Notes under the pieces: generated by a model
The model's input: the letters and a program-made list of their open reading frames with translations, nothing else
Told to the model about the DNA's origin: nothing
The model's database searches: none
Made by a program: the position numbers and the translations under genes
From: Patescibacteria group bacterium
GTDB lineage: Bacteria; Patescibacteriota; Patescibacteriia; Magasanikbacterales; GWA2-37-8
DNA: 64,000 nucleotides
NCBI GenBank assembly: GCA_022710645.1
Contig: JAKLGL010000001.1
Location: 20,614-84,613 of the forward strand
Direction: 5' to 3'
Shown here: one piece after another, positions 6,474 to 54,751 of the stretch
Numbering within the stretch: position 1 is the stretch's first letter
How the letters are laid out: each line of letters starts with the position of its first letter

Positions 6474-6557
6474 AATAGGTATAACTAGACTTATTTAAGA
6501 AATTTTATACAAGAGAATTGTAAACAATTTATCTATAATTAGCCAAAAAAAGCAGTA

Positions 6558-8051: not shown

Positions 8052-8055
8052 TCGT

Positions 8056-22168: not shown

Positions 22169-22289
22169 TTTTTTATTCAACCAAAGGCCTTGATCTCAAG
22201 GTCTTTTTTTATTTTGTTTTTTGTTTTAGCCAGGGTTGTCTTTTTTCTTCTTTTACGTTATGATAAAGACACTAAAATTAATAAATTTA

Positions 22290-25222
22290 TGTCAAAAAAC
22301 ACTTTAAATAAAGCGCAAAAAACAGCTATTGAATATGTTGATGGTCCGCTCATGATAGTGGCTGGCGCCGGTACGGGCAAAACTACGGTGATTACCAAAA
22401 AAATAGCCCACATTTTGGAAAACAAATTGGCAACTCCCGAACAAATTTTAGCTTTGACTTTCAATGAAAAAGCGGCGGCTGAAATGCAAGAGAGATTAGA
22501 TGAGATGCTATCTATCGGTTATACGGAAATGCAAATTTCCACTTTTCACGCTTTTGCGGAAAAGATTTTGGAAAACTACGGTTTGGATATCGGGCTTTCC
22601 AATCAGTTCAAAATTTTGACTGAAACTGACGCTTGGTTATTGATGAAAAAAAATTTGGACAAGTTTAATCTGGATTATTATCGTCCTTTGGGCAATCCGG
22701 TGCGTCATATTCACGAACTCATCAAACATTTCAGCAAGTGCAAAGATGAATTGATAACTCCGGAAAAATATCTGGAATACGCGGAAAATTTAAAATTGGA
22801 TAAAGATAACGTTGAAATCGAAGAAAAAACCCGATTGAGCGAGGTGGCCAACGCTTATCATGTTTACAATCGTCTTTTGCTGGATAGTAATGCTTTGGAT
22901 TTCGGAGATTTGATTTATTACAGCGTGGAATTATTGAAAAAAAGAAAAAATATTTTGCAACAATTTCATCGCCGATTCAAATATATTTTGGTGGATGAAT
23001 TTCAAGATGTGAATTACGCGCAATATGAATTGGTCAAAATATTGGTTGAAGGTGGCGCGCAATTGACCGTGGTCGGAGACGATGATCAGAGTATCTACGC
23101 TTTCCGTGGCGCCAATGTGAGTAATATTTTGCGTTTTAAAGAAGATTTCAAAAATTGCAAGGAAGTTGTTTTGACGGAAAATTATAGAAGCGGACAAGAA
23201 ATACTCGATGTTGCTTATAAAAGCGTTGCAAATAACAATCCGGATAGATTGGAAGTAAAATTAAATATTGATAAAAGACTCGTCGCTTCCGGAGAGATAA
23301 AAACAGGAGAAGTTATTCACGCTCATTTGGAAACTCTGGACGATGAAGCCAAATTTGTCATTGATGAAATAAAGAAAATAAAAGAAAAAAACAAAGATGT
23401 CACTTGGGACGATTTTGCCATTTTGGTGCGTGCCAATTCTCATGCCGACCCTTTTATAAATTTATTGCAAAATTTCGGCATCCCTTACGAATTTTTGAGC
23501 AGTAGCGGATTGTTTCGTCAAGAAGTTGTTTTGGATTGTTATAATTTTTTCAAAGCTATAGACGGTTATCATGAAAATACCGCAATTTATAGAATATTAC
23601 GTTTGCCGTTTTTGGAGGTAAGTGAAAATGATTTGCAAAAAATGCTTTTATTTGCCAAACGTAAAACCGTATCTTATTACGAAGCTCTGAAACGCGGCAA
23701 AGAATACGGACTCGGTAAAGAAGGCGAGAAAATTTTTGCGGAAATCCTCGATTTTTTACACGAGGGGATGAAACAACAGAAAAGCGAAAAACCCACCAGA
23801 ATTTTGTATAATTTTTTGGAAAATAGCGGTTATTTGAAATTTTTGGCGCGCGGCGAACAAGAAGGAAACAGAGAAGTTATTCGTCGAATTTATCAATTGA
23901 AGCAATATTTTGATTACGTGCAAAATTTCGAAAAAATGGTTCCGGGAGCCAAAGTTTCCGATTTTGTCGCGCATTTTGCCGATGTACTGGATGCCGGAGA
24001 TTTGGGTGTTCTCAAACAACCGCAAGAAAGTCCGGATTCGGTCAATATCATGACTGTACACATGTCCAAAGGTTTGGAATTCAAATATGTTTTTGTGGTT
24101 AATTTGGTGGAAGATAGATTTCCGACTAGAAAAAGAAATGAAGGTATAGATATGCCAATACCTCTTCTTCACGAACAGATGCCCGAAGGGGATTATCATC
24201 TGCAAGAAGAAAGAAGGTTGTTTTATGTGGCAATTACTCGCGCCAAAGAAAAACTTTATTTATTGTCCGGAAAAAATTACGGCGGATCTCGTGATAAAAA
24301 AATCAGTCGATTTTTGAACGAGCTCGGATATACGGTCGGTAAATATGACAAGAAAAAATCCACAAGCGCTTTACCAAAATTGGAAAAAGTCAACGAAGAA
24401 AAAGGTAAGTTTATTTATGATTTACCGAAAAGTTTTTCTTTTTCTCAAATCAGTTCTTATGAAGATTGTCCTTACCAATATAAATTGAAAAATATTTTGC
24501 AATTGCAGATTAAAGGCGGTCCGCAATTTTCTTTCGGCCAAAGTATGCATTCCACTTTGCAAAAATTTTATATCCGCATCAAAGACTTGAATTCCGCTAA
24601 ACAAGAAAGTTTATTTGGTTTACCGGAAAAAAATTCGAAAATCGACGGTGAAATAAAGGTTCCGACTTTGGAAGAATTGTTGAAAATGTATGAAGAATCG
24701 TTTATCGATGATTGGTATAATAGTGCCAAACAACGCGAAGATTATTTTTTGCGAGGTAAAGAAATATTGCGTGATTATTATCGTGTTAACGAAGGTAAAT
24801 GGACCGTGCCGGTAGCCTTGGAGCAAAGATTCAAATATAAATTGGGAAAGTATCTGATTTCCGGACGAATTGACAGGATAGATATGACACCGGATAAAAA
24901 ATTAAAAATCGTGGATTATAAAACCGGAAATCCAAAAGAAAAGCTGGAGACCGAAGATAAAAATCAATTGTTAATATATCAATTGGCGTTATCCTCTTTG
25001 CCGGAATTTAAAAATCTCGGAGAAGTGAACGCTTTGACCTATCTTTATTTGTCCGATCAAAGCGAACTGACTTTTATCGGCACGGAAAAAGAATTGGAAA
25101 AAATAAAAGAGAAAATCACGGAAATTATCGATGCTATAAATTCCGGTAATTTTGAAGCCGAGCCGAGTAAATTTACTTGCGCGCGTTGCGATTTTCGAGA
25201 TATTTGCGAATTCAGAGAATAA
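22290..25222 (+). CDS. UvrD/PcrA-family SF1 helicase fused to a C-terminal Cas4/AddB-like PD-(D/E)xK Fe-S nuclease domain
   Basis: Walker A 'AGAGTGKTTVI', then 'LVDEFQD' and 'VGDDDQSIY'. The C-terminus has 'IDRIDMT...IVDYKTG' and a 'C...CARCDFRDIC' cysteine cluster. Start at MSKNTLNK; the ORF-track 22190 extension is hydrophobic junk. Confidence 0.85.
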
Positions 25223-34929: not shown

Positions 34930-36186
34930 ATGTTAGACATTAAATTCATTCGCGAAAATAAAGAATTGGTAAAACAAAATTGTCTTGACCGTCGTGCCAA
35001 AGCCGATATTGATTTGGTTTTATCTCTTGACGAAGCAAGAAAAAATTTATTGAAACAAGCGGAGGAATTACGCGGTTTACGCAACGCAAAATCCAAAGGC
35101 AAACCTACGGATGAAGAAATCGCGAAAATGCGCGAGGTGGGGGATAATATCGCAAAAATTGAAAAAGAATTAGGAGAAGTGGAAAAAAGATATTTGGAAG
35201 AAATGATGAAAATTCCCAATTTGACTCATCCGGAATCTCCGATTGGTGAAGAAGCTGATTTCAAAATAGTTTATAAAAATTTCGAACCGAAAGATTTTTC
35301 TTTCAAACCGCTTGATCACGAAGAATTGATGATCAAAAATGATTTGATAGATTTTGAAAGAGCCACCAAAACCAGCGGGGCTAAATTTTATTTTTTAAAA
35401 AATAATCTGGTTCGCCTGAATCAAGCGTTATTGAATTATGGTATGGATATTGCCGTGAAACACAGCTTTGTTTTATTGGAAACCCCGGACATGGCCAAAA
35501 ATGAAATTTTGCAAGGTATAGGTTTCAATCCGAGAAGCGGGGAAGAAACTCAGATTTATTCCATAGAAAATTCTGATTTGAGTTTGATAGGCACGGCGGA
35601 AATTACCGTCGGAGGATATCATTCCAACGAAATTTTGGATTTGAAAGACGGACCGAAAAAATACATCGCTTTATCTCATTGTTTTCGCACCGAGGCCGGA
35701 GCTTATGGTAAAACCAGCAAAGGACTTTATCGCGTTCATCAATTCACCAAATTGGAAATGTTTGTCTTTTGTAAACCGGAAGACAGTGAAAAATATCATG
35801 CAGAAATTTTGAAAGTAGAAAAAGAAATTATGGACGGATTGGAAATTCCGTATCAAGTCATAGATATTGCCAGTGCCGATTTGGGCGGTCCCGCTTATCG
35901 CAAATTTGATATAGAAGGGTATATGATTATGAAAGGCGACGATAAACATCAAGGTGGTTATGGAGAACTGACATCTTGTTCCAACTGTACCGATTATCAA
36001 GCCAGACGATTGAATATCAAATATAAAAAAGATGACGGTTCCAACGCCTTTGTACACACGTTAAACGGCACTGCCGTAGTACTAAGTCGTTTTCCGATAG
36101 TTATAGCGGAAAATCATCAACAAGCGGACGGAACTATAGAAGTGCCGAAAGCTCTCCAAAAATATTGCGGATTCAAAAAAATATAA
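34930..36186 (+). CDS. serS: seryl-tRNA synthetase
   Basis: N-terminal coiled-coil arm 'MLDIKFIREN' and class II catalytic motifs ('FRTEAG', 'TLNGTAVV.SR'). Confidence 0.9.
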   Translation: MLDIKFIRENKELVKQNCLDRRAKADIDLVLSLDEARKNLLKQAEELRGLRNAKSKGKPTDEEIAKMREVGDNIAKIEKELGEVEKRYLEEMMKIPNLTHPESPIGEEADFKIVYKNFEPKDFSFKPLDHEELMIKNDLIDFERATKTSGAKFYFLKNNLVRLNQALLNYGMDIAVKHSFVLLETPDMAKNEILQGIGFNPRSGEETQIYSIENSDLSLIGTAEITVGGYHSNEILDLKDGPKKYIALSHCFRTEAGAYGKTSKGLYRVHQFTKLEMFVFCKPEDSEKYHAEILKVEKEIMDGLEIPYQVIDIASADLGGPAYRKFDIEGYMIMKGDDKHQGGYGELTSCSNCTDYQARRLNIKYKKDDGSNAFVHTLNGTAVVLSRFPIVIAENHQQADGTIEVPKALQKYCGFKKI

Positions 36187-36189
36187 TTT

Positions 36190-37251
36190 ATGACTTCGGG
36201 AGGAAAAAGACCGTATCTTGATTTTAAAAAATACAGATACGACGAAGAAAAACGTCCGATTTTTTCTTTTCCCAAAAAACCGGCGATTAAACAAATCAAA
36301 AGTTTTGAAGCTGCGACCCCCGTCGAATCGGTTAATTTTATCGTTGGTAACAATCCTTTTCGCAAAGAGCCGAAAAAAAAGATTAATTATAAAAAGTTTT
36401 TCTTCGGTTTTTTCATTTTTTTCTTTTTAGCCGCGTGGTTTTGGCTTATTTTTTATTTACCTTATTTTGATATTGAAAATATTTATTATTCAGGCATAAA
36501 AACAACGAATGAGGCGACTTTAAAAACCTATGTCTACGACAATTTCATCAAATCCGGTAAATATTGGCATAGAAATAATTATTTTGTCACTGACGCGGAA
36601 GAGATCGTTATAGGTATAAAAAATAATTTTGATTTAAGCGATGTCAAAGTGACCAAGATTTTTCCCGATAAATTACAGATTGATGTGATAGAGAAGAGTC
36701 ACAGTATGGTTTTGTGCACGCAACGAGGTTATTATCTACTAGACAGCGATGGTGGTGTAATAAAGATTTTTTGGGAAAAAGAATTTACTAGCACAAGTAT
36801 TTTTACCACAGGAACCGTTCAAAATGAAGTTAACGGACCGACATCAACCACATCGAGCATGCCGGTAGCTGAAGAAATATTCAAACCGACAAGACAAAAA
36901 ATAGATAAAGAATATCAAAATTTACCACTGTTTTGCATTGACGAAGAAAAAAAACTATCTTTAGTCAATAAAAATGTCGTTTCCGAAGCTTTTCTCAAAA
37001 ACATCATTGATTGGCATGAAGCTTTAATCAAGGAGGGGATAGGATCTCCGGAATATTTTCTGGGACAGCTCAATCAATGGACCGGCTTTGAAGCTTATTT
37101 CAAAGATAAGAAATGGCATTTAAAATTATCTCCGGAAAATATCCAATCGCAAATTATAAAAATCAAAGCTGTTATTGAAAGTAAAGAAAGCATATCTCAA
37201 ATCAAAGAATATATAGATGTTCGCTTTGGAGATAGAGTGACTTGGAAGTAA
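36190..37251 (+). CDS. FtsQ/DivIB-like (POTRA-domain) membrane-anchored protein
   Basis: Single N-terminal TM, followed by a POTRA-like 'YWHRNNYFVTDAEEIVIGIKNNFDLSDVKVTKIFPDKLQIDVIEKSHSMVL'. Confidence 0.45.
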   Translation: MTSGGKRPYLDFKKYRYDEEKRPIFSFPKKPAIKQIKSFEAATPVESVNFIVGNNPFRKEPKKKINYKKFFFGFFIFFFLAAWFWLIFYLPYFDIENIYYSGIKTTNEATLKTYVYDNFIKSGKYWHRNNYFVTDAEEIVIGIKNNFDLSDVKVTKIFPDKLQIDVIEKSHSMVLCTQRGYYLLDSDGGVIKIFWEKEFTSTSIFTTGTVQNEVNGPTSTTSSMPVAEEIFKPTRQKIDKEYQNLPLFCIDEEKKLSLVNKNVVSEAFLKNIIDWHEALIKEGIGSPEYFLGQLNQWTGFEAYFKDKKWHLKLSPENIQSQIIKIKAVIESKESISQIKEYIDVRFGDRVTWK

Positions 37252-37335
37252 GAGAAGCGGTGATTTGCAAGATTTTAAACAATGTGAAATAATATACCTA
37301 ACTTCGTATAACAGAGGATAACCGAAGTAAAGACT

Positions 37336-38307
37336 ATGCAAAAATCAAATACATCGCTAATAAAGCATATCCCAACCTTTTTGGAATACTGTGAGGTAGA
37401 AAAAGGTCTTTCTCCCGTATCCTCCAAAAACTATCACAATTTTTTAAAAGTTTTTATTGAATGGCTTGATAAATCCAAATTAAACAATCTCTTACCACAC
37501 GAATTGACACCTGAACATATTTGGAGTTACCGCCTCTTTTTATCTCGTAAACAGGACTACAAGGGCGCCTATCTCAAAAAGACTTCTCAGAGCTATTATC
37601 TTCGAGCTTTACGAAATTTCCTGAAATATCTGACAGACAAAGACATTGTCACATTACCGTCGGAAAAAATAAAATTACCAAAATTGACTGATAAAGACAA
37701 ACAAATTAAATTTTTGAGTTTTGATCAGGTAGAAAAACTACTATCCATGCCAGACACTTCAAATACCGAAGGGTTACGCGATAGAACCATCCTTGAAGTA
37801 CTCTTCTCCACTGGTATGCGTGTCTCAGAGCTTACTTCGCTTAACCTAAAACAGTTTAATGTTAATGATTTAATAGCTGGAAAAATTCCAGATTTTACCG
37901 AACTTAATATTATAGGTAAAGGCGGTAAGATGCGCACGGTTTATTTTTCCAAAAGATCCCTGGAATGGTTGGCTAAATATCTCAAAGAACGCAAAGATAT
38001 GCTCCCTCCCCTGTTTATCAATTACTTCAAAGCTGCCAAAGACGAGGATGCCAGACGTTTATCACCCAGATCGGTTGAAAGTATCGTGCGTAAATATACG
38101 ATGATGGCCGGATTGCCGGTAGAAGCCACACCACATACTCTGAGACACAGTTTTGCCACTGATTTACTCTCCCACGGCGCTGATTTACGTTCAGTCCAGG
38201 AACTCTTGGGTCATAGCAATGTTGCCACTACTCAAATCTATACTCACGTAACCAACGCCGGATTAAAAAATGTTTATAAAAGCTTTCATAGTGGAGCGAA
38301 GAAATAA
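37336..38307 (+). CDS. xerD: tyrosine site-specific recombinase XerC/XerD
   Basis: Catalytic residues in context 'TPHTLRHSFATDLLSHGADLRSVQELLGHSNVATTQIYTHV'. Core-binding N-domain present. Confidence 0.85.
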   Translation: MQKSNTSLIKHIPTFLEYCEVEKGLSPVSSKNYHNFLKVFIEWLDKSKLNNLLPHELTPEHIWSYRLFLSRKQDYKGAYLKKTSQSYYLRALRNFLKYLTDKDIVTLPSEKIKLPKLTDKDKQIKFLSFDQVEKLLSMPDTSNTEGLRDRTILEVLFSTGMRVSELTSLNLKQFNVNDLIAGKIPDFTELNIIGKGGKMRTVYFSKRSLEWLAKYLKERKDMLPPLFINYFKAAKDEDARRLSPRSVESIVRKYTMMAGLPVEATPHTLRHSFATDLLSHGADLRSVQELLGHSNVATTQIYTHVTNAGLKNVYKSFHSGAKK

Positions 38308-38309
38308 AT

Positions 38310-38795
38310 ATGAAATTTCTGTCCGATCAAGAAGAAAAACAAGCACTGGATTATATTGAAAAAGCGGCTAAAATAGCTCTCTATTCAACCTGTGAACGTG
38401 CTCGTTGCGGTTGTGTAATAATAAAAGACAATAAAATCATCGGCGAAGGATTCAATAATCCGCCCCAAAATAAAATTGAACAAAAAAGATGTTCTATTTC
38501 TAAAGATACTTACCATAAAAAGGTTACGGATAAAACTTGTTGCGTCCACGCTGAACAACGAGCAATTATGGATGCATTAAGAAATAATCCAAATGAACTG
38601 AACGGATCAAGATTGTATTTTGTTCGATTAGATAAAGACGGTAATTCTCAAAAAGCCGGCAAACCTTATTGTACTATTTGCAGTAAAATGGCGTTGGATG
38701 TTGGAGTAGTTGAATTTGTTTTATGGCATGACCAGGGTGTATGCGTTTATAATACCGATGAATACAATCTTCTTTCGTATCAATACCAAGATTAA
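38310..38795 (+). CDS. dCMP/cytidine deaminase family zinc enzyme
   Basis: 'CVHAEQRAIMDAL' (H-A-E) and 'PYCTICSKMA' (PCxxC) zinc motifs. Confidence 0.75.
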   Translation: MKFLSDQEEKQALDYIEKAAKIALYSTCERARCGCVIIKDNKIIGEGFNNPPQNKIEQKRCSISKDTYHKKVTDKTCCVHAEQRAIMDALRNNPNELNGSRLYFVRLDKDGNSQKAGKPYCTICSKMALDVGVVEFVLWHDQGVCVYNTDEYNLLSYQYQD

Positions 38796-38849
38796 TTGAA
38801 AGACTAATAAAAACGCCCTGATAAAACAGGGTGTTTTTTTATTTATATT

Positions 38850-40085
38850 TTAATCTTTCAAATATCCCGTAGGATCTACCGGGATGCCGCTTTTACGAAC
38901 TTCAAAGTGCAAATGAGGGCCGGTGGTGAAAGGTCCGGCGCCAACAGTGCCAGGTTTACCGCCGGAATAACCTATGATATCACCCCTGTTTACAAAATCA
39001 TCTTCATTAACGGAAATAGAGCTTAGATGACCGTATACAGTAGATAAGTTTCCGGTATGAATAAGTAAAACATAACTATAACAAGATGAAGAGGTGCATC
39101 TTTTGGTGCGCCCGACATATCCCGCAGTTGCGGCGCGAACCGCTGTTCCTTGAGAAGCGCGGATATCTATAGCATTATGTTCAAAAACATTTCTGAAAGA
39201 ATAGGTAGAATCATGAAAAGACGCGGTAATATAATGCGAAGGAACTGGCCAACTTAATTCTCCGGATCCGCTCAAATTTTTGAATTTTTCCTGTTCAGCA
39301 AGTTTTTTGCGCACCTGTTCTTCGTAAGATCGAACTTCCCCTTCTATTACTTGATATTGTCTTTTCAAACTTTCAAGCAAAGTTTGATATTTCATTTCCG
39401 AAGCTCTGGTTTCGGCCAAAAGATCTTGTTTATCTCCGGATTGTTCTTTGAAATCAAGTTTTTTATTTTCTAAAGCAAATTTCTGTTCTTCATAAATTTT
39501 CTTTTTGGCTTCCACTTGAGATTTTTTATCAGCCAGATCTTCCGCAGTTACGCGCAAATTCTTGACCGACCTTCCTAAATCCACATAAATACTTTCAAGG
39601 TATTGGACTTGATTGTAGAAATCGGCAAAAGTATCGTTAGTAAGCAGTATTTCCAAATAATTTTTCTGATCATTGGCGTGGATATTGCGTATAATCTGAG
39701 AAATGATGACTTTTTGTCTATCCATGGCTTTTTGTTTATCTTCAATAGACAATTGTAAAGCCTCTATCTCCAACTTGGTTTCATCGATTTTCAATTGAAT
39801 CATTTTGATTTCAGCTTCGGTTTGCTTGATTTTATTCTCCAAAATACTAAGCTGGTTTTTCAAAGATACGGCTTCGGTTTGTTTCTGACTGATATTTTTC
39901 TTATAAACACTTATGGTATCTTCCAGTTGTTTGATTTTATCTTTGCGGGCACTAATCTCTTTATTTAAAGATTCTATTTCATCCTTATTGCTGGCCAAAT
40001 TGGCGGTTTGCGAATAAACAAAAATCGGCGCCAAAAACAATGTCGCGATAAAACAAACTATAAATAATTTTAAACTTTTAGGCAT
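38850..40085 (-). CDS. M23 (LytM) peptidoglycan endopeptidase with an N-terminal coiled-coil (EnvC-like)
   Basis: Signal peptide and long heptad-repeat region. The C-terminus has 'HTGNLSTVYGHL...GPHLHFEV', the M23 HxxxD/HxH motifs. Confidence 0.8.
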   Translation of the reverse strand: MPKSLKLFIVCFIATLFLAPIFVYSQTANLASNKDEIESLNKEISARKDKIKQLEDTISVYKKNISQKQTEAVSLKNQLSILENKIKQTEAEIKMIQLKIDETKLEIEALQLSIEDKQKAMDRQKVIISQIIRNIHANDQKNYLEILLTNDTFADFYNQVQYLESIYVDLGRSVKNLRVTAEDLADKKSQVEAKKKIYEEQKFALENKKLDFKEQSGDKQDLLAETRASEMKYQTLLESLKRQYQVIEGEVRSYEEQVRKKLAEQEKFKNLSGSGELSWPVPSHYITASFHDSTYSFRNVFEHNAIDIRASQGTAVRAATAGYVGRTKRCTSSSCYSYVLLIHTGNLSTVYGHLSSISVNEDDFVNRGDIIGYSGGKPGTVGAGPFTTGPHLHFEVRKSGIPVDPTGYLKD

Positions 40086-41665: not shown

Positions 41666-42403
41666 TTATTTTATAAATTTATTTTTTATAACAATATAAG
41701 GAAATATCGTGATCGCATTCCAAATTCTTTGAATACGACTCGGTTGTTTTATGAGACGATACAACCATTCTAAACCGATTTTGCGTAAAAAACAAGGGGC
41801 GCGACGCACAGTTCCGGAAAGATAATCAAATGACCCCCCTACCCCCATCGCTATTTTAATGTTTGGCATTTTACTCAAATTTTCCGATATCCATCGTTCT
41901 TGTTTATTCATTCCGAAAGCGACAAAGAGAATACCTGCCTTTGATTCATTTATACTTTGAATTGTCCTTTCATTTTCTTCCTTATCATAGGATAATATTG
42001 AATTGATTTGAATTCCTTTATTATAACCGGTGATTTCCAAACCCGGAATTTGTATTTGCAAATTTTCTGCGGTTTTTTTCACAACTTCATCATTTCCAGA
42101 ACCCAACAAATAAACATTGATATTTTTCTCTGCGGAAATTTTACAAATCTCTATCATAAAATCCACTCCAGTAATCCGGGGACAACCGGAAAATAAACTG
42201 AGGCCGAACCCGTCGCAAATATTCAAATCTCCGGCATTCAAAATATTTTTAAAATCATCGTCTTTTTGGGCTTGCACGATAAATTCCGGATTTGGAGTAA
42301 AAATTTTATATTGTTTTGTCGAACTCAAAAAATCACCAACTCTATCTTTGGCTTGTTTTAAATCCAAACCGTCTAATTTTACATTGCAAAAAACCATAGA
42401 CAT
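41666..42403 (-). CDS. tagA: WecB/TagA/CpsF-family glycosyltransferase
   Basis: 'IAMGVGGSFDYLSGTVRRAP...WLYRL' conserved C-terminal block. Start chosen at MSMVF. Confidence 0.7.
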   Translation of the reverse strand: MSMVFCNVKLDGLDLKQAKDRVGDFLSSTKQYKIFTPNPEFIVQAQKDDDFKNILNAGDLNICDGFGLSLFSGCPRITGVDFMIEICKISAEKNINVYLLGSGNDEVVKKTAENLQIQIPGLEITGYNKGIQINSILSYDKEENERTIQSINESKAGILFVAFGMNKQERWISENLSKMPNIKIAMGVGGSFDYLSGTVRRAPCFLRKIGLEWLYRLIKQPSRIQRIWNAITIFPYIVIKNKFIK

Positions 42404-42981
42404 TACTTTTCTCTGAAAGTCGTAGATGTAAAAATATAAATATCGCTGTTTTTTTCCATCCAAGCATTGGCCGGCAAACCGGCTTTTTCAATACACAGAG
42501 CTTCGAGCATCGTGCCTAAATCCCAATTTTCTCTTTTAGCCACTTCAGGCAAAAATACCCCGCTTTTTTTACCTTGTATTATCATTACTCCGTGTTTATC
42601 CAATTCTATTTCTTGTATATTTTTTATTTTATGCAACGGAGAAAGAATGGAAATTTCTATTTTAATCTCCGGCAATTCATTTAAAACCAAAGGTTTAAAT
42701 CGATTATCTTTGACTGCTGCTTCTATCGCCATATCTACCACTGTTTCATTCAGGGGTTTATCAGTTTCCATCAACCCTATACAACCGCGCAACTCATTAC
42801 TCTTCCATAACGTAACAAAAATACCGACTTTTCTTTTTAACATCTGATTGTTGGTGATAGCCTGAATAACCCAACCTTCTTGTAAGTATGTCTCTATAGC
42901 TACTCTGGCCCATTCTAACAGTTGTTTTTTCTCATTTTCATTATATATCGGCTCAGAAAGTAAAACGTTCTTTTTAATCAT
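42403..42981 (-). CDS. AMMECR1-domain protein
   Basis: 'GIFVTLWKSNELRGCIGLME' is the AMMECR1 signature. Start chosen at MIKKNVLL to avoid overlapping the upstream ABC gene. Confidence 0.75.
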   Translation of the reverse strand: MIKKNVLLSEPIYNENEKKQLLEWARVAIETYLQEGWVIQAITNNQMLKRKVGIFVTLWKSNELRGCIGLMETDKPLNETVVDMAIEAAVKDNRFKPLVLNELPEIKIEISILSPLHKIKNIQEIELDKHGVMIIQGKKSGVFLPEVAKRENWDLGTMLEALCIEKAGLPANAWMEKNSDIYIFTSTTFREK

Positions 42982-42985
42982 ATTT

Positions 42986-44758
42986 TTACACGATAAAACC
43001 CCCGGCTTGTATATGCCAAAGTTTAGCATAAAGACCGTTTGCTTTGATCAAATCACTATGGTTTCCTTCTTCGATTATTTTTCCTTCTTCCATAACAATA
43101 ACTCTATCCATTTTGGCAATGGTTGATAATCGATGAGCGACAACTATCACTGTTTTTTCTTTCATCAAATTTTCCAAAGCTTTTTGAATCAACTGTTCAG
43201 ACTCGGAATCAAGCGAAGAAGTGGCTTCGTCCATTATCAAAATAGGCGCGTTTTTCAAAATCGCTCGAGCAATAGCCACGCGTTGTCTTTCACCACCGGA
43301 AAGCTTGATACCTCGTTCACCGACTTCAGTATTATAACCTTCCTTTAATTTAATGATAAAATCATGAGCATAAGCTTTTTTGGCCGCTTCTTCAACTTCT
43401 TCTTTGGTAGCACCTTTCTTACCATAAGCAATATTTTCAAAAAGTGATCGGTGAAACAAAGCCGGATCTTGAGGAACGAATGAAATATTTTCCCATAAAC
43501 TTTCTTTGGTAACTTTGGAAATATCTTGTCTGTCAATATTTATTTTTCCTTTATTCAAGTTATACATGCGTAATAGGAGTTTTATTACTGTAGATTTTCC
43601 AGAACCGCTTGGACCGACTAAAGCAAGTTTTTCATTATCTTTAACCGTTAAAGAAAAATTTTCAAATATTTTATTATTTTCTTTATAACCGAAATTTACT
43701 TTATCAAATACTATTTCTCCTTTGGTAACTTTGATATTTTTGGCATTTTCAATATCCTTAACCTCGGTTTCTTTGGTAATTATCGCAGTCATTTCTGTAG
43801 CATCGGCCATGGATTCATAAAGTCGTTGAATGGATCTTCCCAACCCCCAAACATTCATCATAATCATCACCACATAAGCTTGAATCATCACAAAATCACC
43901 GATGGTCAAGATATCTTTTTGAAAAAATCCGATAGCCAAATAATTGATACCAACTTCCAATAAAATAAACAAGAAACCTTGAATAGCAAAAAACAAAATA
44001 CTATAACGCCAACTTTTCAAATTGAGTAAGCGAATAGTTTCATTTTTATTTTCTAAATTTTTTATTTCTTCTTCCGTTTTTCCAAAAAGTTTAACATTGG
44101 AGTAGTTAGCGAAAACGTCAGCCGCATATCCGGTAGTCTTATTACCTTCTTTGTTGCTTTCAATATCTATTTTCATTTTTCCTTTTAACACTAGTAAATT
44201 CAACAAAATAAAGAATAACAACCAAACCAAAACACTGTAAGCCAAAATCGGATTACGTCCATATAAAACCACACAAATACCGCCGGTGCCTATAAATAAA
44301 TTACTTAATTCAAAAAATATAATATCATTAAGTGTAAAAAACGCTCCAGCAAATTTGTTTATTTTTCGAACCAAAGATCCGATAAATTGATCATTAAAAA
44401 AAGAAAAAGAATGTTCCAACATGCGAATGACGCAAAATTGTTGAATATCTTTATCACCATATGTTTCAAAATAACTAACAACAAAAAAATACGCTCGTTG
44501 AAAAATGAAAGATACTAATTTCAGAACAAAAACAATTAATAAAACTTTTATTGCAGTATCAAAAATACCAACAGACAAGAAATCAACTATCTTTTTATAA
44601 TAAATCGGAACAATAATTTCCAAAACCTGGTTAATGACGGTAAAAATAACCATCAATACCAAAAATTGCCATCTTTTTTTGTAGAAAGAGGCAAAAATCC
44701 TCAGGGTTTGTTTTACCAAACCGAAATCCAATTTTTCTTGTTTTTCTTGTTCTTCCAT
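42986..44758 (-). CDS. ABC exporter, fused permease/ATPase (MsbA/MdlB-like)
   Basis: Six-TM N-domain. C-terminal NBD with Walker A 'GPSGSGKST', signature 'LSGGERQRVAIARA' and Walker B 'ILIMDEATS'. Confidence 0.85.
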   Translation of the reverse strand: MEEQEKQEKLDFGLVKQTLRIFASFYKKRWQFLVLMVIFTVINQVLEIIVPIYYKKIVDFLSVGIFDTAIKVLLIVFVLKLVSFIFQRAYFFVVSYFETYGDKDIQQFCVIRMLEHSFSFFNDQFIGSLVRKINKFAGAFFTLNDIIFFELSNLFIGTGGICVVLYGRNPILAYSVLVWLLFFILLNLLVLKGKMKIDIESNKEGNKTTGYAADVFANYSNVKLFGKTEEEIKNLENKNETIRLLNLKSWRYSILFFAIQGFLFILLEVGINYLAIGFFQKDILTIGDFVMIQAYVVMIMMNVWGLGRSIQRLYESMADATEMTAIITKETEVKDIENAKNIKVTKGEIVFDKVNFGYKENNKIFENFSLTVKDNEKLALVGPSGSGKSTVIKLLLRMYNLNKGKINIDRQDISKVTKESLWENISFVPQDPALFHRSLFENIAYGKKGATKEEVEEAAKKAYAHDFIIKLKEGYNTEVGERGIKLSGGERQRVAIARAILKNAPILIMDEATSSLDSESEQLIQKALENLMKEKTVIVVAHRLSTIAKMDRVIVMEEGKIIEEGNHSDLIKANGLYAKLWHIQAGGFIV

Positions 44759-50078: not shown

Positions 50079-50870
50079 ATGTCTTTAGTTTTTGCCGGCA
50101 TTACGCCTCATCCGCCAATGCTTTTACCCACCATAGGAAAAGATGAAACGAAAAAAATAGATAAAACCAAAAAAGCTTTTTCCGTCATGGAACAAAGATT
50201 GTACGCTTCACACCCCGATGTGATTATCATTATTTCCCCTCACGGAAGTTATTTTGTAGATGCTTTTACGGTAAATTCTTGTCCTGAATACGAAACCGAT
50301 TTCAAAGAGTTCGGGGATATTTCAACCAAAATAAAATTCAAAGGAGAAACATCTTTGGCTTACAAAATACGCAAAGCTGCGTTTTCTCAAAATTTACCGA
50401 CCGCAACCATCAGTGAATTCAAATTGGATCACGGTAGCGGCGTGCCGCTTTATTTTCTAACCTCTCACTTAAAAAACTTCAGCTTGCTACAATTGGGATT
50501 CTGCGATCTATCCCACAAAAATCATGTGGAATTTGGAAATGTACTACAAGAATTGATCCTAAGTAGCAACAAAAGGATCGCTGTGATAGCTTCCGGAGAC
50601 ATGTCTCACTCTCTAACTTCCGATTCTCCGGCCGGTTTTTCTCCGGAAGGAAAGAAATTTGATGCAAAAATACAAGAACTGCTTTCTCAACAAAGCATTT
50701 CTGGGTTTTTGCAACTTTCGCCTGATTTTATCAATGCCGCAGCCGAATGCGGTTTACGCTCTCTGCTTATATTATTGGGTATTATTCAGGGTGTCAGATG
50801 TTCATATCACCAACTCAATTACGAAGCGCCTTTCGGTGTCGGTTATCTGACGGCTTTTTACGAATTTTAA
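50079..50870 (+). CDS. Memo-like / LigB-superfamily (class III extradiol dioxygenase fold) protein
   Basis: 'IIISPHGSY' and 'ASGDMSHSL' resemble the MEMO1 'GPSHH' and 'SSDFSHYG' motifs. The assignment is tentative. Confidence 0.45.
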   Translation: MSLVFAGITPHPPMLLPTIGKDETKKIDKTKKAFSVMEQRLYASHPDVIIIISPHGSYFVDAFTVNSCPEYETDFKEFGDISTKIKFKGETSLAYKIRKAAFSQNLPTATISEFKLDHGSGVPLYFLTSHLKNFSLLQLGFCDLSHKNHVEFGNVLQELILSSNKRIAVIASGDMSHSLTSDSPAGFSPEGKKFDAKIQELLSQQSISGFLQLSPDFINAAAECGLRSLLILLGIIQGVRCSYHQLNYEAPFGVGYLTAFYEF

Positions 50871-50876
50871 AAAAAT

Positions 50877-52745
50877 ATGAGGGCTCAAATCATACTCTTT
50901 CGGAGGATGCCGCCAAAAATCTCCCATTTTGATTATTTGGTCCCGGAAAATTTAAAAAAAGAAATTAAAGTCGGACAATTGGTGGAAGTTCCCTTTCGCT
51001 CCGGTAACGAATACGGCTTGGTCCATTCGTTGGATCAAAAAACACTTCTGAATTCCAAAACAAAATTACGCTATTTAAATCGCATTTGTTTTTCGAATTG
51101 TTTTTTACCCGACAACACATCATATTTTTTTAAAGAAATTTCCGAATTTTACGGTACTGATTTGGGTTTTATTTATAAATTCAGCTTGCCAAAATTCACC
51201 AAAAAATTTATTGCAAGTTTAACTTCTGCGGATTTTCCTTTGGAAAAAACAAAAAGAGAAACCGAAAAACCGCAAACGATTGTTTTACAAAATGAAAAAC
51301 ACAAAGATGACTTTTTAAACAAAATATTATCAAATTCCGCACAACATCTTATTTTAGTTCCGGAAAAATCCGATATTGCTCCGCTTTATGAAAATTTAAA
51401 AAAAGTTTTTCCGATAGAAATTCTTTCCAGCGAAATTACGGATAAAAACACAACCGCGCTCTGGCGAAAAATAAGACACGGTGAAAATATCGTAATCATA
51501 GGTACGCGCAAAGCTTTGTTTTTACCTTGGACAAATTTAAAAACAATCACCATTATTGATGAAGGTAATGAAAATTACAAATCTTTTGATATGGCTCCGC
51601 GTTATCACACTCGAGACGCCGCTCTGCTACTCTCCTCTTTTTGCAAATGCGCAGTTTATCTCGTTTCTCACACGCCTTCCGTATCTTCTTTTTATTTCAG
51701 TAAACAAAAAATATACAACATTGTCGGAGAACCGACCAAAATAAAAAATTCTTTTAAAATTATAGACCTTAATTTGGAAAAACGCGCCAAAAACTATTCT
51801 CCTTTGAGTTTTGAATTATCCGAAGAACTAAAAGGTTTACAAAGAAACGAATCGGCTTTTTTATTTTTAAACAAAAAAGGAAGCGCCGGTTATTTATTTT
51901 GCGGAGATTGTAAAAAGCCTTTTGTGTGTTCTACTTGCGGGCGGCCACTGTCTTATTTTGCCTCCAAAAAAGAATTACGTTGTAATTTTTGCGAAACCGT
52001 TCAACCTCTTTTTGATTCCTGTCCCAATTGTCAAAGTTTAAATATGAAAATGCGCAACCCTGGCACTGAAAGTGTGGAAAAAGAATTGCGCAAAGAAAAG
52101 GCACTACAACATTTTCAAATAGTTCGTCTTGATTCTGAAAATGAAGAAAATTATTCTTTCGTACGAAAACCCGGTACTATCTATATAGGAACAGAGATGG
52201 CTTGGGGACTGATACCTTGGAGAGAAATTAAGCTCGTAGGTTTTCTTAACACCGATTCTTCTCTTGTTTCTTCCGAATACAAAAATTTGGAGCATTTATG
52301 GCAAAAAATACGGGATTCTTTTTATAAAAGCGACATTGAAACAAAAATTATTTTACAAACATCACACCCCGATCATTATCTGTTTTCAGCTTTAAACGAA
52401 CCAAATATTTTTTACGAAAATCAATTAAAAGAAAGATCTTTATTTCAATATCCACCCTTCAATTTTTGGCTAAAAATAGCTATTTTGTCTCCAAACGCAA
52501 ATTCCGCCATAAGAGAAGCTACAGACTTGAAAAATCGTCTTTCATCCTTGACAAACAGCTTAAAAAACGCTAAGATAAGCGGTCCTCATCAAGCAACTCC
52601 TTTTTTACAAAAAGGAAAATACCGTTATATTTTACTTATACGTCTCGGATATGAAAATTATCGTTCTTCGGTCAAAGAAATAAACAAACTTATTCCAAAT
52701 AATTGGAAGATTGATCCAAACCCAAATACACTACTTTCCGTATAA
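50877..52745 (+). CDS. priA: primosomal protein N' (PriA)-like, lacking Walker A and DExH helicase motifs
   Basis: PriA 3'-DNA-binding N-domain. The segment 'LILVPE...IVIIGTRKALFLP...IIDEGNENYKSFD..PRYHTRDAA' is colinear with PriA helicase domain 1, but GxGKT is absent and DEEH is DEGN. A 4xCys zinc-binding region follows (CGDC...CSTC...CNFC...CPNC). Confidence 0.65.
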   Translation: MRAQIILFRRMPPKISHFDYLVPENLKKEIKVGQLVEVPFRSGNEYGLVHSLDQKTLLNSKTKLRYLNRICFSNCFLPDNTSYFFKEISEFYGTDLGFIYKFSLPKFTKKFIASLTSADFPLEKTKRETEKPQTIVLQNEKHKDDFLNKILSNSAQHLILVPEKSDIAPLYENLKKVFPIEILSSEITDKNTTALWRKIRHGENIVIIGTRKALFLPWTNLKTITIIDEGNENYKSFDMAPRYHTRDAALLLSSFCKCAVYLVSHTPSVSSFYFSKQKIYNIVGEPTKIKNSFKIIDLNLEKRAKNYSPLSFELSEELKGLQRNESAFLFLNKKGSAGYLFCGDCKKPFVCSTCGRPLSYFASKKELRCNFCETVQPLFDSCPNCQSLNMKMRNPGTESVEKELRKEKALQHFQIVRLDSENEENYSFVRKPGTIYIGTEMAWGLIPWREIKLVGFLNTDSSLVSSEYKNLEHLWQKIRDSFYKSDIETKIILQTSHPDHYLFSALNEPNIFYENQLKERSLFQYPPFNFWLKIAILSPNANSAIREATDLKNRLSSLTNSLKNAKISGPHQATPFLQKGKYRYILLIRLGYENYRSSVKEINKLIPNNWKIDPNPNTLLSV

Positions 52746-52748: not shown

Positions 52749-53201
52749 ATGTCAACAAATTACGATAATTATCAAATTTCATTAAAACTTATTCTTCAAA
52801 ATAAAGAGAATAAATTTTTATTGTTAAAAGTTGAGGACGGAGGCGGATATCACGGATATTATGATTTTCCCGGAGGCAGAATTAACGAGGAAGAATTTAC
52901 TGTCGGACTATCTGAAATTTTAAAACGTGAAACAAGTGAAGAAATAGGAACTACGATAAAATACGAATTAATATCCAAAACACCGATTGCTTATGGAAGA
53001 CACAAATGGTTTTCAAAAAGACAAAATAAATTAGCAAATTGTTTTTATCTCGTCTTTGAAGGAAAACTCTTGGAAGGAGATGTAAAAATAAGCAACGAAC
53101 ATGCTTCATACGTTTGGATGTCTTATGAAGATATAAAAAATAATTTAGAAACATTATTTGTTTCAGGAATTTTAGAATGCGCTAAAATGTATTTTAAATA
53201 A
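52749..53201 (+). CDS. NUDIX hydrolase
   Basis: Nudix box 'GGRINEEEFTVGLSEILKRETSEEIGT'. Confidence 0.7.
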   Translation: MSTNYDNYQISLKLILQNKENKFLLLKVEDGGGYHGYYDFPGGRINEEEFTVGLSEILKRETSEEIGTTIKYELISKTPIAYGRHKWFSKRQNKLANCFYLVFEGKLLEGDVKISNEHASYVWMSYEDIKNNLETLFVSGILECAKMYFK

Positions 53202-53202: not shown

Positions 53203-53691
53203 ATGTTATTACAAATATTGACGGAACCGAATAAAATCTTGCGTCAAGTCGGAAAAAAATTGACGTTAGAAGAAATCGGTTCCAAAAAGTTCAAAAAATT
53301 CATCAAAGATTTAACCGAGACCATGTATATTCGCGACGGTGTCGGTATTGCCGCTCCACAAGTCGGAGAATCGGTTATGTTTTGCGTTATTGCCAAAGAT
53401 TTTACTCCGACCAAAGAGAAAGATTTGATTTTGATAAATCCTGTTTGGGAGAAAAAAAGCATAACCAAGCTAATTGATGAAGAAGGTTGTTTATCCGTAC
53501 CCGGAATTTACGGGTTGGTAAAACGTTATAAAAAAATAAAAGTTAAAGCACTCGATGAAAACGGTAAAGAAATTTGTTTTGAGGCTGAAAACTTCCCCGC
53601 TCGCGTTATACAACATGAAATCGACCACCTTAACGGAATTTTATTTATAGATAAGGCCACAAAATTAAGACAAGCGGAAAAAACGCTTTAA
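53203..53691 (+). CDS. def: peptide deformylase
   Basis: 'GVGIAAPQVG', 'EGCLSVPG' and 'QHEIDHLNG' are the three Def motifs. Confidence 0.9.
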   Translation: MLLQILTEPNKILRQVGKKLTLEEIGSKKFKKFIKDLTETMYIRDGVGIAAPQVGESVMFCVIAKDFTPTKEKDLILINPVWEKKSITKLIDEEGCLSVPGIYGLVKRYKKIKVKALDENGKEICFEAENFPARVIQHEIDHLNGILFIDKATKLRQAEKTL

Positions 53692-53765: not shown

Positions 53766-53845
53766 TATCATCCTGAGTCGTAGACGAAGGATCTGCAAAA
53801 AGCAATAATGCTACTTACAGATTCTTCACTTTGTTCAGAATGACA
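53766..53845. repeat. Dispersed imperfect-palindrome repeat, copy D (between def and fmt)
   Basis: Arms atcatcctgagtcgtagacgaaggatctg and cagattcttcactttgttcagaatgaca, the same family as 17433 and 20121. Confidence 0.6.
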
Positions 53846-53857
53846 ACCAAAATATAT

Positions 53858-54751
53858 ATGACAAAAATAGTTTTCTTCGGAACACAGGAATTTGCCAAAG
53901 GAATATTGGAATCATTATTGAACGATTCTGATTTTGAAGTTGTTGGCGTATTTACTCAACCTGATAAACCGGTCGGACGTAAACAAGAAATACAGATGTC
54001 ACCGGTAAAAATTTTAGCCTTGGAAAAAAACATTCCTATTTTTCAACCTGAGAGTTTAAAAAATTATGAAATGCCAAATTTGGGTGCGGATTTAAATATT
54101 GTTTGCCAATATGGTTTGATAATTCCACAAACAGTTTTGGACTCAGCAAAACACGGAAGTATAAATATTCACACATCATTACTTCCAAAATATCGTGGCG
54201 CCTCCCCTATCCAATCCGCTATTTTAAATGGTGAGAAAGAAACCGGCACAACCATCATGCTCATGGACAGTAAAATGGATCACGGTCCGATTTTGATGCA
54301 AGAAAAAATTACTATTGATCCGGATGATACTTATTTGACATTAAGCGACAAAATGTTGCCAACAGCTTCAACTTTGCTTTTAAATACTATCAAAGATTAT
54401 TTGAAAGGAATTGTAAAACCTCAAGAACAAGATCATGACAAAGCTATACTTTGCAAAATGTTTACACGTGAAGATGGAAAAATAGATTTCAATAAATCGG
54501 CACAAGAAATTTACAACCAATTCCGCGGATTTTATGTCTGGCCCGGAGTGTTTACTTTTTTTGGAGATAAAAGGGTAAAACTTTTGAATATCAAACCAGT
54601 TGAAAAAAAATCAGAACCGGGAAAATTCATTACTGAAAACGGAAGATTATTTATCGGATGTGCAGACGGAGCGATAGAAATTTTCAAACTTCAACCTGAA
54701 GGCAAAAATCCCATGACTGCCGAGGCGTTTGTGAATGGATACATTAAATAA
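53858..54751 (+). CDS. fmt: methionyl-tRNA formyltransferase
   Basis: N-terminal 'IVFFGTQEFA' and 'HTSLLPKYRGASPIQSAILNGEKETGTTIM' formyltransferase core. It follows def. Confidence 0.85.
   Translation: MTKIVFFGTQEFAKGILESLLNDSDFEVVGVFTQPDKPVGRKQEIQMSPVKILALEKNIPIFQPESLKNYEMPNLGADLNIVCQYGLIIPQTVLDSAKHGSINIHTSLLPKYRGASPIQSAILNGEKETGTTIMLMDSKMDHGPILMQEKITIDPDDTYLTLSDKMLPTASTLLLNTIKDYLKGIVKPQEQDHDKAILCKMFTREDGKIDFNKSAQEIYNQFRGFYVWPGVFTFFGDKRVKLLNIKPVEKKSEPGKFITENGRLFIGCADGAIEIFKLQPEGKNPMTAEAFVNGYIK

What the first reader, a model, noticed from the sequence alone, without database searches (positions are those of the whole stretch)
50877..52745. PriA-like protein lacking helicase ATPase motifs
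The protein is colinear with PriA. It has the 3'-DNA-binding N-domain, a helicase lobe-1 segment and a 4xCys zinc-binding region. Walker A (GxGKT) is missing and DEEH has become DEGN, which predicts no ATP hydrolysis. A helicase-dead PriA has been reported in at least one other bacterium. Here it suggests a scaffold-only restart primosome, or loss of function in a reduced genome.
Basis: partly seen in the sequence, partly recalled or inferred. Interest (0 to 1): 0.55.

Follow-up and report, generated by a model that had tools for sequence, protein, structure and literature searches.

The report
ATPase-dead PriA restart protein, Patescibacteria
This gene is the bacterium's own PriA replication-restart protein, which keeps its fork-binding and zinc-finger parts under strong selection but has lost the ATP-burning motor site; the same loss is shared by a large family of related uncultured bacteria.

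Summary
ORF 50877-52745(+) encodes a 622-aa PriA (NCBIfam TIGR00595 above cutoff). An AlphaFold model (pLDDT 92.9) matches E. coli PriA over its full length (TM 0.84 to 8FAK).

There is no P-loop anywhere in the protein. Motif II is degenerate, and the better-supported register is DEEH -> IDEG, not DEGN. The Q motif, motif V and the motif VI arginine fingers are also lost.

This is not gene decay. dN/dS is 0.08-0.19. The gene sits in a conserved priA-def-fmt position in about 30 species-level genomes. All 150 best 50%-identity cluster representatives lack Walker A and motif VI.

Within the family only the ATP pocket has drifted (motif I entropy 3.09 bits versus 0.43 in canonical PriAs). The 3'-end-binding domain, aromatic-rich loop, eight zinc cysteines and C-terminal domain are as conserved as in canonical PriAs.

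Best reading: an ATP-independent fork-recognition and primosome-assembly scaffold, like E. coli PriA K230R/K230A and the published Deinococcus radiodurans pseudohelicase. Genome reduction does not explain the loss: Saccharimonas keeps every motif, while Nitrospirales and Bipolaricaulota lost them independently.

It is a new member of a known kind, of moderate interest. ATPase loss and the scaffold role are inferred, not assayed.

The parts
50877..52745 (+). priA-type gene, 622 aa, ATPase motifs lost (identical to HRY36320.1, 'primosomal protein N'', Candidatus Magasanikbacteria MAG)
50877..51191 (+). 3'-DNA-binding domain (residues 1-105). [quoted passage not shown]
   Evidence: Pfam PF17764 E=3.8e-10; alignment; PMC5175346
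51273..51776 (+). RecA-like helicase lobe 1 (residues ~133-300); fold kept
   Evidence: AF2 model and Foldseek
51285..51311 (+). Remnant of motif I / Walker A (residues 137-145, LQNEKHKDD); no glycine-rich loop and about 4 residues shorter than canonical
   Evidence: family entropy 3.09 bits versus 0.43 in canonical PriAs
51555..51569 (+). Remnant of motif II (residues 227-231, IDEGN; Eco DEEH = I227-D228-E229-G230). Only E229 is conserved in the family (92%).
51576..51623 (+). Aromatic-rich loop (residues 234-249, YKSFDMAPRYHTRDAA; Eco K328-Y335 region); the most conserved stretch in the family
   Evidence: PMC5175346
51897..52040 (+). Cysteine-rich region (residues 341-388) with eight Cys at 342, 345, 351, 354, 369, 372, 382 and 385; spacing C2C-5-C2C-14-C2C-9-C2C as in E. 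coli
52041..52454 (+). Rest of RecA-like helicase lobe 2 (residues 389-526); motif V reduced to IGT
52314..52337 (+). Remnant of motif VI (residues 480-487, DSFYKSDI, where canonical PriAs have QxxGRxGR); arginine fingers lost
52455..52742 (+). PriA C-terminal domain (residues 527-622)
   Evidence: Pfam PF18074 29.3 bits versus cutoff 26.9
53203..53691 (+). def (peptide deformylase), part of the conserved priA-def-fmt order
53831..54751 (+). fmt (methionyl-tRNA formyltransferase), part of the conserved priA-def-fmt order
50079..50870 (+). LigB/MEMO-like gene ending 6 bp upstream of priA; this adjacency is conserved in about 30 related genomes, and no functional link has been shown

Best explanation
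This is the genome's PriA ortholog, and it has become a pseudohelicase.

Shown by computation: it keeps the complete PriA fold (3'-end-binding domain, two RecA-like lobes, two-zinc cysteine-rich region, C-terminal domain) under purifying selection, while the nucleotide pocket has been erased. The Q motif, P-loop, catalytic motif II residues, motif V and the motif VI arginine fingers are all gone.

Inferred: it cannot bind or hydrolyse ATP in the canonical site, so it neither translocates nor unwinds. It still recognises abandoned forks and D-loops. [quoted passage not shown] The aromatic-rich loop and lobes contact the junction and the lagging-strand template. The CRR, lobe 2 and CTD enclose the lagging-strand ssDNA and present a docking surface.

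In E. coli, DnaB loading and PriA-PriB restart work with ATPase-dead K230A/K230R PriA. The protein would then act as a platform that recruits the replicative helicase DnaB, either directly, as proposed for D. radiodurans, or through an adaptor not yet identified.

Prediction: it can only act on forks whose lagging-strand template is already single-stranded. Any unwinding needed would have to come from another helicase in trans.
For: Identity and fold:
- TIGR00595 scores above its cutoff, and the PriA-specific Pfam domains are present.
- The AF2 model has pLDDT 92.9 and pTM 0.91.
- Foldseek's best hits are all PriA (8fak_H TMq 0.84), and the next family (Mfd/RecG) is only at E~1e-8.

Orthology: ClpB-S11 peptidase-LigB-PriA-Def-Fmt-WzyC is conserved in about 30 species-level genomes. 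Canonical PriA-Def-Fmt occurs in Firmicutes loci.

Loss of the ATP site:
- All 150 best cluster representatives lack both a P-loop and GRxGR.
- The catalytic Glu position (Eco E321) is Y/F/D/Q/K/R across the family.

Selection:
- dN/dS is 0.08-0.19.
- Family length is tightly held (5th-95th percentile 597-642 aa).
- Family versus canonical entropy in bits: motif I 3.09 vs 0.43, motif II 2.09 vs 0.38, motif VI 3.11 vs 0.50.
- By contrast: ARL 1.44 vs 1.50, 3'BD 2.35 vs 2.41, CTD 2.57 vs 2.61.
- The eight Cys are 94-99% conserved, and CRR spacing is identical to E. coli.

The loss is specific to PriA: other ATPases in the window are intact.

Literature:
- priA300 (K230R) cells are near wild type, and the variant supports restart in vitro (PMC5778457).
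- DnaB loading is reconstituted with K230A PriA.
- Fork binding alone pivots the CRR and forms the ssDNA pore (PMC10175261).
- D. radiodurans PriA lacks ATPase and helicase activity but binds forks and DnaB (PMC4504706).
Against: - No biochemistry. ATPase loss, fork binding and DnaB recruitment are all inferred.
- No primosome partner (PriB, DnaT, DnaD, DnaB, a loader) was found in the 64-kb window, and the rest of the genome could not be searched. A second, intact priA cannot be formally excluded.
- In E. coli the ARL is described as coupling DNA binding to ATP hydrolysis, so its strong conservation here is not explained by the simple scaffold model.
- The WH domain, which contacts the parental duplex in E. 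coli, is absent.
- E. coli PriA has been reported to have a second, weak nucleotide site whose location is unknown (PMC5778457).
Confidence: 0.72

Rival explanations
1. Neofunctionalised fork- or 3'-end-binding protein. The PriA scaffold has been kept, but it no longer loads DnaB. It might instead cap or protect the nascent 3' end, block polymerase access, or serve recombination or DNA-uptake intermediates.
For: - No known primosome partner is seen nearby.
- The PriB-docking residues of E. coli are not conserved as a set.
- The family carries its own conserved residues absent from canonical PriAs (P12, Y92, T210, W610, Y513, Y525).
- Blocking Pol III at the 3' end is a described PriA activity (PMC5778457).
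Against: - Every PriA-specific module is retained with canonical-like conservation.
- The gene occupies the ancestral priA-def-fmt position.
- No other priA is seen.
- The closest experimental analogue (D. radiodurans) still binds DnaB (PMC4504706).
Confidence: 0.15
2. Cryptic enzyme. The protein still binds or hydrolyses a nucleotide through a non-canonical site, so it retains some motor or switch activity.
For: - E229, K235, R211, T210 and E472 stay highly conserved near the former active-site cleft.
- A second, unlocated nucleotide site has been proposed for E. coli PriA (PMC5778457).
Against: - There is no glycine-rich loop anywhere.
- The P-loop and motif VI segments are the most variable parts of the family.
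- The catalytic Glu and both arginine fingers are replaced by unrelated residues.
- A single K230 change already kills E. coli PriA ATPase (PMC5175346, PMC5778457).
Confidence: 0.06
3. Non-functional relic. This is a decaying priA on its way to being lost from a reduced genome.
For: The genome is small and AT-rich, of the CPR type, and catalytic motifs are lost.
Against: - dN/dS is 0.08-0.19.
- ORFs are intact and of constant length in about 30 species-level genomes and at least 150 deep clusters.
- Decay is confined to the ATP pocket.
- The predicted fold is confident.
- Canonical PriA is retained in the equally reduced Saccharimonas.
Confidence: 0.03

Closest known systems
Deinococcus radiodurans / Deinococcus-Thermus PriA pseudohelicase (Lopper et al. 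2015, PMC4504706)
   Same: A PriA ortholog with non-consensus motifs I and II, conserved across a lineage. The proposed function is ATP-independent restart initiation with retained DNA and DnaB binding.
   Different: - In Deinococcus-Thermus the P-loop is still recognisable (GKT -> GRT). Here it is erased and shortened, and the Q motif, motif V and motif VI are also gone.
- The phylum is different (Patescibacteria), and the architecture is much smaller, about 620 aa with no WH domain.
- Nothing has been assayed here.
E. coli PriA K230R (priA300) and K230A
   Same: An ATPase- and helicase-dead PriA that still assembles the primosome and supports PriA-PriB restart in vivo and DnaB loading in vitro (PMC5778457, PMC10175261). 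It is the natural functional model for this protein.
   Different: These are engineered single substitutions in an otherwise intact motor. They depend on PriB, DnaT and DnaC, which are not known in Patescibacteria. priA300 is defective in the PriA-PriC pathway and in Mu transposition, so some substrates are lost.
Canonical PriA (E. coli / Klebsiella; PDB 4NL4, 6DGD, 6DCR, 8FAK)
   Same: - Same domain order and fold (TM 0.84 to 8FAK).
- Same 3'BD FDY triad and same CRR spacing.
- Conserved ARL and CTD.
- Same genomic position as in Firmicutes (priA-def-fmt).
   Different: It has no WH domain and no functional helicase motifs I, II, V or VI. Sequence identity is about 24%.
Other degenerate PriA lineages found here (Nitrospirales, Bipolaricaulota, an Omnitrophota sequence)
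   Same: They have lost motifs I, II and VI while retaining four CxxC pairs.
   Different: Their nearest relatives are canonical PriAs, not this family. The Nitrospirales proteins are about 775 aa and have an insertion at the former P-loop. These look like independent losses.

Membership tests
PriA (primosomal protein N', TIGR00595) | N-terminal 3'-DNA-binding domain | tested here: met
   PF17764 at 17-105, 39.9 bits versus cutoff 22.7. The FDY triad aligns with Eco F16-D17-Y18.
PriA (primosomal protein N', TIGR00595) | Two RecA-like lobes of an SF2 helicase core with the PriA-type arrangement | tested here: met
   AF2 pLDDT 92.9. The top nine Foldseek PDB hits are all PriA, with TMq up to 0.84.
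PriA (primosomal protein N', TIGR00595) | Cysteine-rich region: CxxC x4 binding two zinc ions, inserted in lobe 2 | tested here: met
   C342/345/351/354/369/372/382/385; spacing 5-14-9 as in E. coli. Zinc binding itself was not testable.
PriA (primosomal protein N', TIGR00595) | PriA C-terminal domain | tested here: met
   PF18074 at 527-616, 29.3 bits versus cutoff 26.9
PriA (primosomal protein N', TIGR00595) | Whole-protein score above the curated equivalog cutoff | tested here: met
   TIGR00595 scores 248.5 bits versus 230.35. It is far below the cutoffs of the PRK05580 sub-models.
PriA (primosomal protein N', TIGR00595) | Intact SF2 ATPase/helicase motifs (Q, I, II, V, VI) | tested here: not met
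   No P-loop anywhere; DEEH -> IDEG; QxxGRxGR -> QKIRDSFYKS; no DEAD or Helicase_C Pfam hit
PriA (primosomal protein N', TIGR00595) | Winged-helix domain between the 3'BD and the helicase core | tested here: not met
   Absent. It is also absent in short canonical PriAs (P0022, P0036, P0047, P0075, P0087), so it does not define the family.
PriA (primosomal protein N', TIGR00595) | Orthologous genomic position | tested here: met
   priA-def-fmt order is shared with canonical PriAs of Firmicutes and conserved in about 30 related genomes.
PriA (primosomal protein N', TIGR00595) | Fork/D-loop binding and primosome assembly (DnaB reloading) | not testable with these tools
   Needs EMSA, DnaB-loading assays or genetics.
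PriA pseudohelicase (D. radiodurans type) | PriA ortholog with non-consensus Walker A and B, conserved across a lineage | tested here: met
   All 150 best cluster representatives and about 30 genome loci lack the motifs; dN/dS 0.08-0.19.
PriA pseudohelicase (D. radiodurans type) | No ATP hydrolysis and no duplex unwinding | not testable with these tools
   Predicted from the sequence only.
PriA pseudohelicase (D. radiodurans type) | Retained DNA binding and interaction with the cognate DnaB | not testable with these tools
   The DNA-binding modules are conserved. The cognate DnaB was not identified.
PriA pseudohelicase (D. radiodurans type) | Common descent with the Deinococcus-Thermus proteins | not tested
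   No Deinococcus sequence was retrieved. The different phylum and the different mode of decay suggest an independent origin.

The most novel reading that the evidence does not exclude
PriA's conserved, selectable function across bacteria may be ATP-independent fork recognition and platform formation, with the helicase motor an accessory that is repeatedly discarded.

The motor is missing here in a large Patescibacteria radiation (at least 150 clusters at 50% identity). It has been lost independently in Nitrospirales, Bipolaricaulota, an Omnitrophota lineage and Deinococcus-Thermus.

Within that reading, the aromatic-rich loop is the best-conserved element of the motorless family. It would then have an essential ATP-independent role at the fork junction. 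These PriAs would hand forks to DnaB through a partner or a direct contact unlike PriB/DnaT or DnaD.
Probability: 0.4. Interest if true: 0.55.

Novelty: new member of a known kind. Interest (0 to 1): 0.42.

Why it matters
PriA is usually described as a near-universally conserved helicase, and Deinococcus-Thermus is cited as the notable exception (PMC4504706). This locus represents a much larger natural set of motorless PriAs, in which selection has separated what PriA needs from what it can lose.

- Kept: 3'BD, aromatic-rich loop, zinc CRR, CTD.
- Lost: the whole nucleotide pocket.

That gives a natural mutagenesis map for the ATP-independent core of replication restart. It also points to lineages where the link between PriA and DnaB is unknown. 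Finally, it warns that automatic 'primosomal protein N' / replication restart helicase' annotations in Patescibacteria, Nitrospirales and others name an activity these proteins almost certainly lack.

Tried and rejected
1. Shifted but intact Walker motifs. I searched the whole protein and all 150 representatives for [AG]xxxxGK[ST] and GRxGR and found none.
2. Pfam at E<=1 for DEAD, Helicase_C or ResIII gave no hits.
3. A genome scan with a 59-sequence family alignment (A3) failed because no stretch was conserved enough. It worked with the closer 20-sequence alignment A4.
4. I tried to map the SSB-tail binding site from a remembered residue number (R697). The E. coli sequence has Ser at 697, so my memory was unreliable and I make no claim about the SSB site.
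5. Motif II register. Two alignments disagree by one residue. I prefer DEEH = IDEG because the deeper family members (hDYEH, hDFEH) align without gaps to E. coli IDEEH.
6. Literature searches linking PriA to Patescibacteria/CPR found nothing relevant.
7. A second priA, dnaB, dnaC or dciA. There is none among the window ORFs of at least 150 aa.
8. Rfam scan of the window found no RNA families.
9. A full phylogeny to count independent losses was not attempted, because only NJ was available and identity is about 25%. I used nearest-neighbour phmmer scores instead.
Full report
**1. What is at the coordinates**

The ORF 50877-52745(+) is real and encodes 622 aa. The protein is identical to GenBank HRY36320.1, 'primosomal protein N'' from a Candidatus Magasanikbacteria metagenome-assembled genome. 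The same sequence occurs on contigs up to 563 kb from anaerobic-digester metagenomes.

Pfam finds the PriA 3'-DNA-binding domain (17-105), the PriA C-terminal domain (527-616) and a weak PriA zinc ribbon (351-377). It finds no DEAD, Helicase_C or ResIII domain even at E<=1. NCBIfam TIGR00595 (priA equivalog) scores 248.5 bits against a cutoff of 230.35. phmmer against PDB sequences gives about 1e-45 to E. coli and Klebsiella PriA, but the alignment starts at E. coli residue 238, just after Walker A.

**2. The motifs**

I aligned the protein with 79 homologs, extracted the motif blocks, and made an L-INS-i alignment of 236 proteins that includes E. coli K-12 PriA.

| Motif | Canonical PriA | Window protein |
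|---|---|---|
| Q motif | Eco Q203 | deleted |
| I | G(V/I)TGSGKT | LQNEKHKD, about 4 residues shorter |
| Ia | VPEIxLTPQ | VPEKSDIAP |
| II | DEEH | IDEG (or DEGN in the other register) |
| III | SATPS | SHTPS |
| IV | LFLNRRG | LFLNKKG |
| V | IGTQMxxKG | IGTEMAWGL |
| VI | QxxGRxGR | QKIRDSFYKS |

The motif II register is ambiguous by one residue. In either register the motif II His is lost. Across the family the catalytic-Glu position holds Y, F, D, Q, K or R.

The '4xCys' region is four CxxC pairs, eight Cys in all. Its spacing, 5-14-9, is exactly that of E. coli. The winged-helix domain is missing, as it is in several short but otherwise canonical PriAs.

As an internal control I checked six other ATPases in the window: HsdR, an AAA_14 protein, a Pif1-like helicase, a UvrD-nuclease fusion, an ABC transporter and ClpB. 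All have textbook Walker A and B motifs.

**3. Fold**

An AlphaFold2 model built on the 80-sequence alignment is confident throughout (mean pLDDT 92.9, pTM 0.91, no segment below 50). Foldseek against the PDB returns only PriA structures as its top nine hits. The best is fork-bound E. coli PriA, 8FAK chain H (TMq 0.84, E 2e-45). Mfd, RecG and DEAD-box proteins follow at E~1e-8 or worse. Both RecA-like lobes, the CRR and the CTD are therefore structurally retained, and only the catalytic residues are gone.

**4. Not a decaying gene but a large family**

An exhaustive phmmer search of 1.84 billion cluster representatives gave 13,864 hits. The best 150 are all about 600-660 aa with 28-59% identity, and the 150th still scores E=4e-64. 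None of the 150 has a P-loop anywhere, and none has GRxGR.

A scan of species-representative genomes found about 30 loci of this type, mostly titled Magasanikbacteria or Patescibacteria. In all of them the gene order ClpB-S11 peptidase-LigB-PriA-Def-Fmt-WzyC is conserved. The priA-def-fmt core is shared with canonical PriAs in Veillonellaceae, Peptostreptococcus and Sarcina. This argues that the gene is the positional ortholog of priA and not an extra paralog.

Nei-Gojobori dN/dS for the closest pairs is 0.08-0.19. dS is saturated at 1.1-2.3, so the true ratios are if anything lower.

**5. Selective decay of the ATP pocket**

Per-column entropy in 168 family members against 55 canonical PriAs:

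| Region | Family (bits) | Canonical (bits) |
|---|---|---|
| Motif I | 3.09 | 0.43 |
| Motif II | 2.09 | 0.38 |
| Motif VI | 3.11 | 0.50 |
| Aromatic-rich loop | 1.44 | 1.50 |
| 3'BD | 2.35 | 2.41 |
| CTD | 2.57 | 2.61 |
| CRR | 2.43 | 2.04 |

Canonical invariants that have lost conservation in the family are exactly the nucleotide-site residues: Q203; G224, T226, G227, G229, K230, T231; D320, E321, H323; Q420, R428; Q540, K544, G545; Q580, G583, R584, G586, R587.

Positions that remain conserved: Y18, G29, P253, G302, R304, K328, R334, P359, N426, G429, all eight Cys, G490, G538, T539, D560, E572, Q597, R625, P631 and P632.

F18-D19-Y20 corresponds to E. coli F16-D17-Y18. [quoted passage not shown]

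**6. Mechanism**

Established knowledge:
[quoted passage not shown] Helicase activity is needed only for the PriA-PriC route, Mu transposition and some other contexts (PMC5778457).
- In the cryo-EM structure of the PriA-PriB-fork complex, fork binding pivots the CRR by about 85 degrees. This forms a lagging-strand ssDNA pore framed by CRR, HD2 and CTD and exposes the partner-docking surface.
- DnaB loading is reconstituted with K230A PriA (PMC10175261).
- D. radiodurans PriA lacks ATPase and helicase activity but binds ssDNA, forks and its DnaB (PMC4504706).

Inference: the window protein retains every module used in those ATP-independent steps and has lost only the motor. It most likely acts as a structure-specific fork and D-loop sensor and as a primosome-assembly platform. 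It should be limited to substrates whose lagging-strand template is already single-stranded. Any unwinding would come from another helicase, and a Pif1-like helicase and a UvrD-nuclease fusion are encoded in the same window.

The step from PriA to DnaB is unknown here. No PriB, DnaT, DnaD, DnaB or loader lies in the window, and the E. coli PriB-docking residues are not conserved as a set.

**7. Genome reduction is not the explanation**

Within CPR, Saccharimonas PriA (L064, L070) is fully canonical (GDTGTGKT, DESH, QAMGRVGR). A Moranbacteria PriA (L038) keeps Walker A.

Outside CPR, Nitrospirales (six loci), Bipolaricaulota (L074) and an Omnitrophota sequence (P0069) have also lost motifs I, II and VI. 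Their nearest relatives by phmmer score are canonical PriAs, not the CPR family, which points to independent losses. With the published Deinococcus-Thermus case, loss of the motor from PriA looks recurrent.

**8. Comparison with what is known, and novelty**

The protein works like, and is best filed with, the PriA pseudohelicase described for D. radiodurans. It is an independent and more extreme case:
- the P-loop is erased instead of carrying a K-to-R change;
- the Q motif and motifs V and VI are also lost;
- it has no WH domain and is about 620 aa;
- it represents a very large uncultured radiation.

Full-text searches of 8 million papers and preprints found nothing on PriA motif loss in Patescibacteria/CPR. 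I rate it a new member of a known kind.

A replication-restart specialist would find the individual gene unsurprising, given priA300 and Deinococcus. Two things are of moderate interest. One is the breadth and recurrence of the loss. The other is that the aromatic-rich loop, described as an ATPase-coupling element, is the best-conserved part of a motorless family.

**9. Limits**

- All functional statements are inferences from sequence, predicted structure and analogy.
- The whole genome could not be searched for a second priA or for partners.
- The count of independent losses rests on nearest-neighbour scores, not on a tree.
- Only the top 150 of 13,864 hits were scored for motifs.
- The better fit of the model to the fork-bound state than to the apo state may reflect WH absence or AlphaFold bias, and should not be over-read.

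Noticed in passing
L043, L047, L054, L058, L065, L067 (Nitrospirales); L074 (Bipolaricaulota); P0069 (Omnitrophota); P0085; P0041/P0049: Further PriA lineages outside Patescibacteria have lost motifs I, II and VI. P0041/P0049 are only partly degenerate (GPRESGKE, DGEE, motif VI intact). The Nitrospirales proteins are about 775 aa with an insertion where the P-loop was. Their nearest relatives are canonical PriAs, so these look like independent losses.
   Followed up: partly
P0040, P0045, P0065 (Curtissbacteria-type; alignment): A more degraded CPR PriA form of about 575-595 aa. It also lacks the two middle CxxC pairs of the zinc region, so it can probably bind only one zinc ion.
   Followed up: no
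window 234-249 of the protein (nt 51576-51623): In E. coli the aromatic-rich loop is described as coupling DNA binding to ATP hydrolysis. Here it is the most conserved stretch of the ATPase-less family (K235 98%, P241 100%, R242 92%), which implies an ATP-independent role.
   Followed up: partly
window 1844-10395: A type I restriction-modification system (HsdM 1844-3307, HsdS 4765-5922, HsdR 8056-10395) is interrupted by two ORFs with no Pfam hit (3300-4802, 5919-6473) and an AAA_14/DUF4143 ATPase (6618-8051).
   Followed up: no
window 14169-15554 and 22190-25222: A Pif1-like helicase (461 aa) and a 1010-aa UvrD-helicase/PD-(D/E)XK nuclease fusion, both with intact Walker motifs. They are candidates for supplying unwinding in trans at forks.
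   Followed up: no
window 42403-43029 and 50079-50870: An AMMECR1 gene and a LigB/MEMO-like gene, two components of an AmmeMemoRadiSam-type set, lie 7 kb apart with no radical-SAM gene between them. The LigB-like gene ends 6 bp before priA, and this adjacency is conserved in about 30 genomes.
   Followed up: partly
window 52749-53201: A Nudix hydrolase gene lies between priA and def only in the window genome and its two closest relatives (L003, L004). The other roughly 27 loci have priA directly followed by def.
   Followed up: partly
window ~36000-39000: Cumulative GC skew peaks near 36-38 kb, next to a Xer-type tyrosine recombinase gene (37336-38307) and a switch of gene strand at about 38.8 kb. 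This could be a replication-terminus-like region, or simply skew linked to gene orientation.
   Followed up: no
window 1-64000: No Rfam family (tRNA, rRNA, riboswitch and so on) reaches its gathering score anywhere in the 64 kb.
   Followed up: no
L003, L005, L008-L010, L013, L015 and others (titles): Many loci that carry this Patescibacteria-type PriA and the Magasanikbacteria gene order are titled 'uncultured Gammaproteobacteria bacterium' in their records, and one is titled 'Candidatus Udaeobacter'. These are probably mislabelled MAG taxonomy.
   Followed up: no
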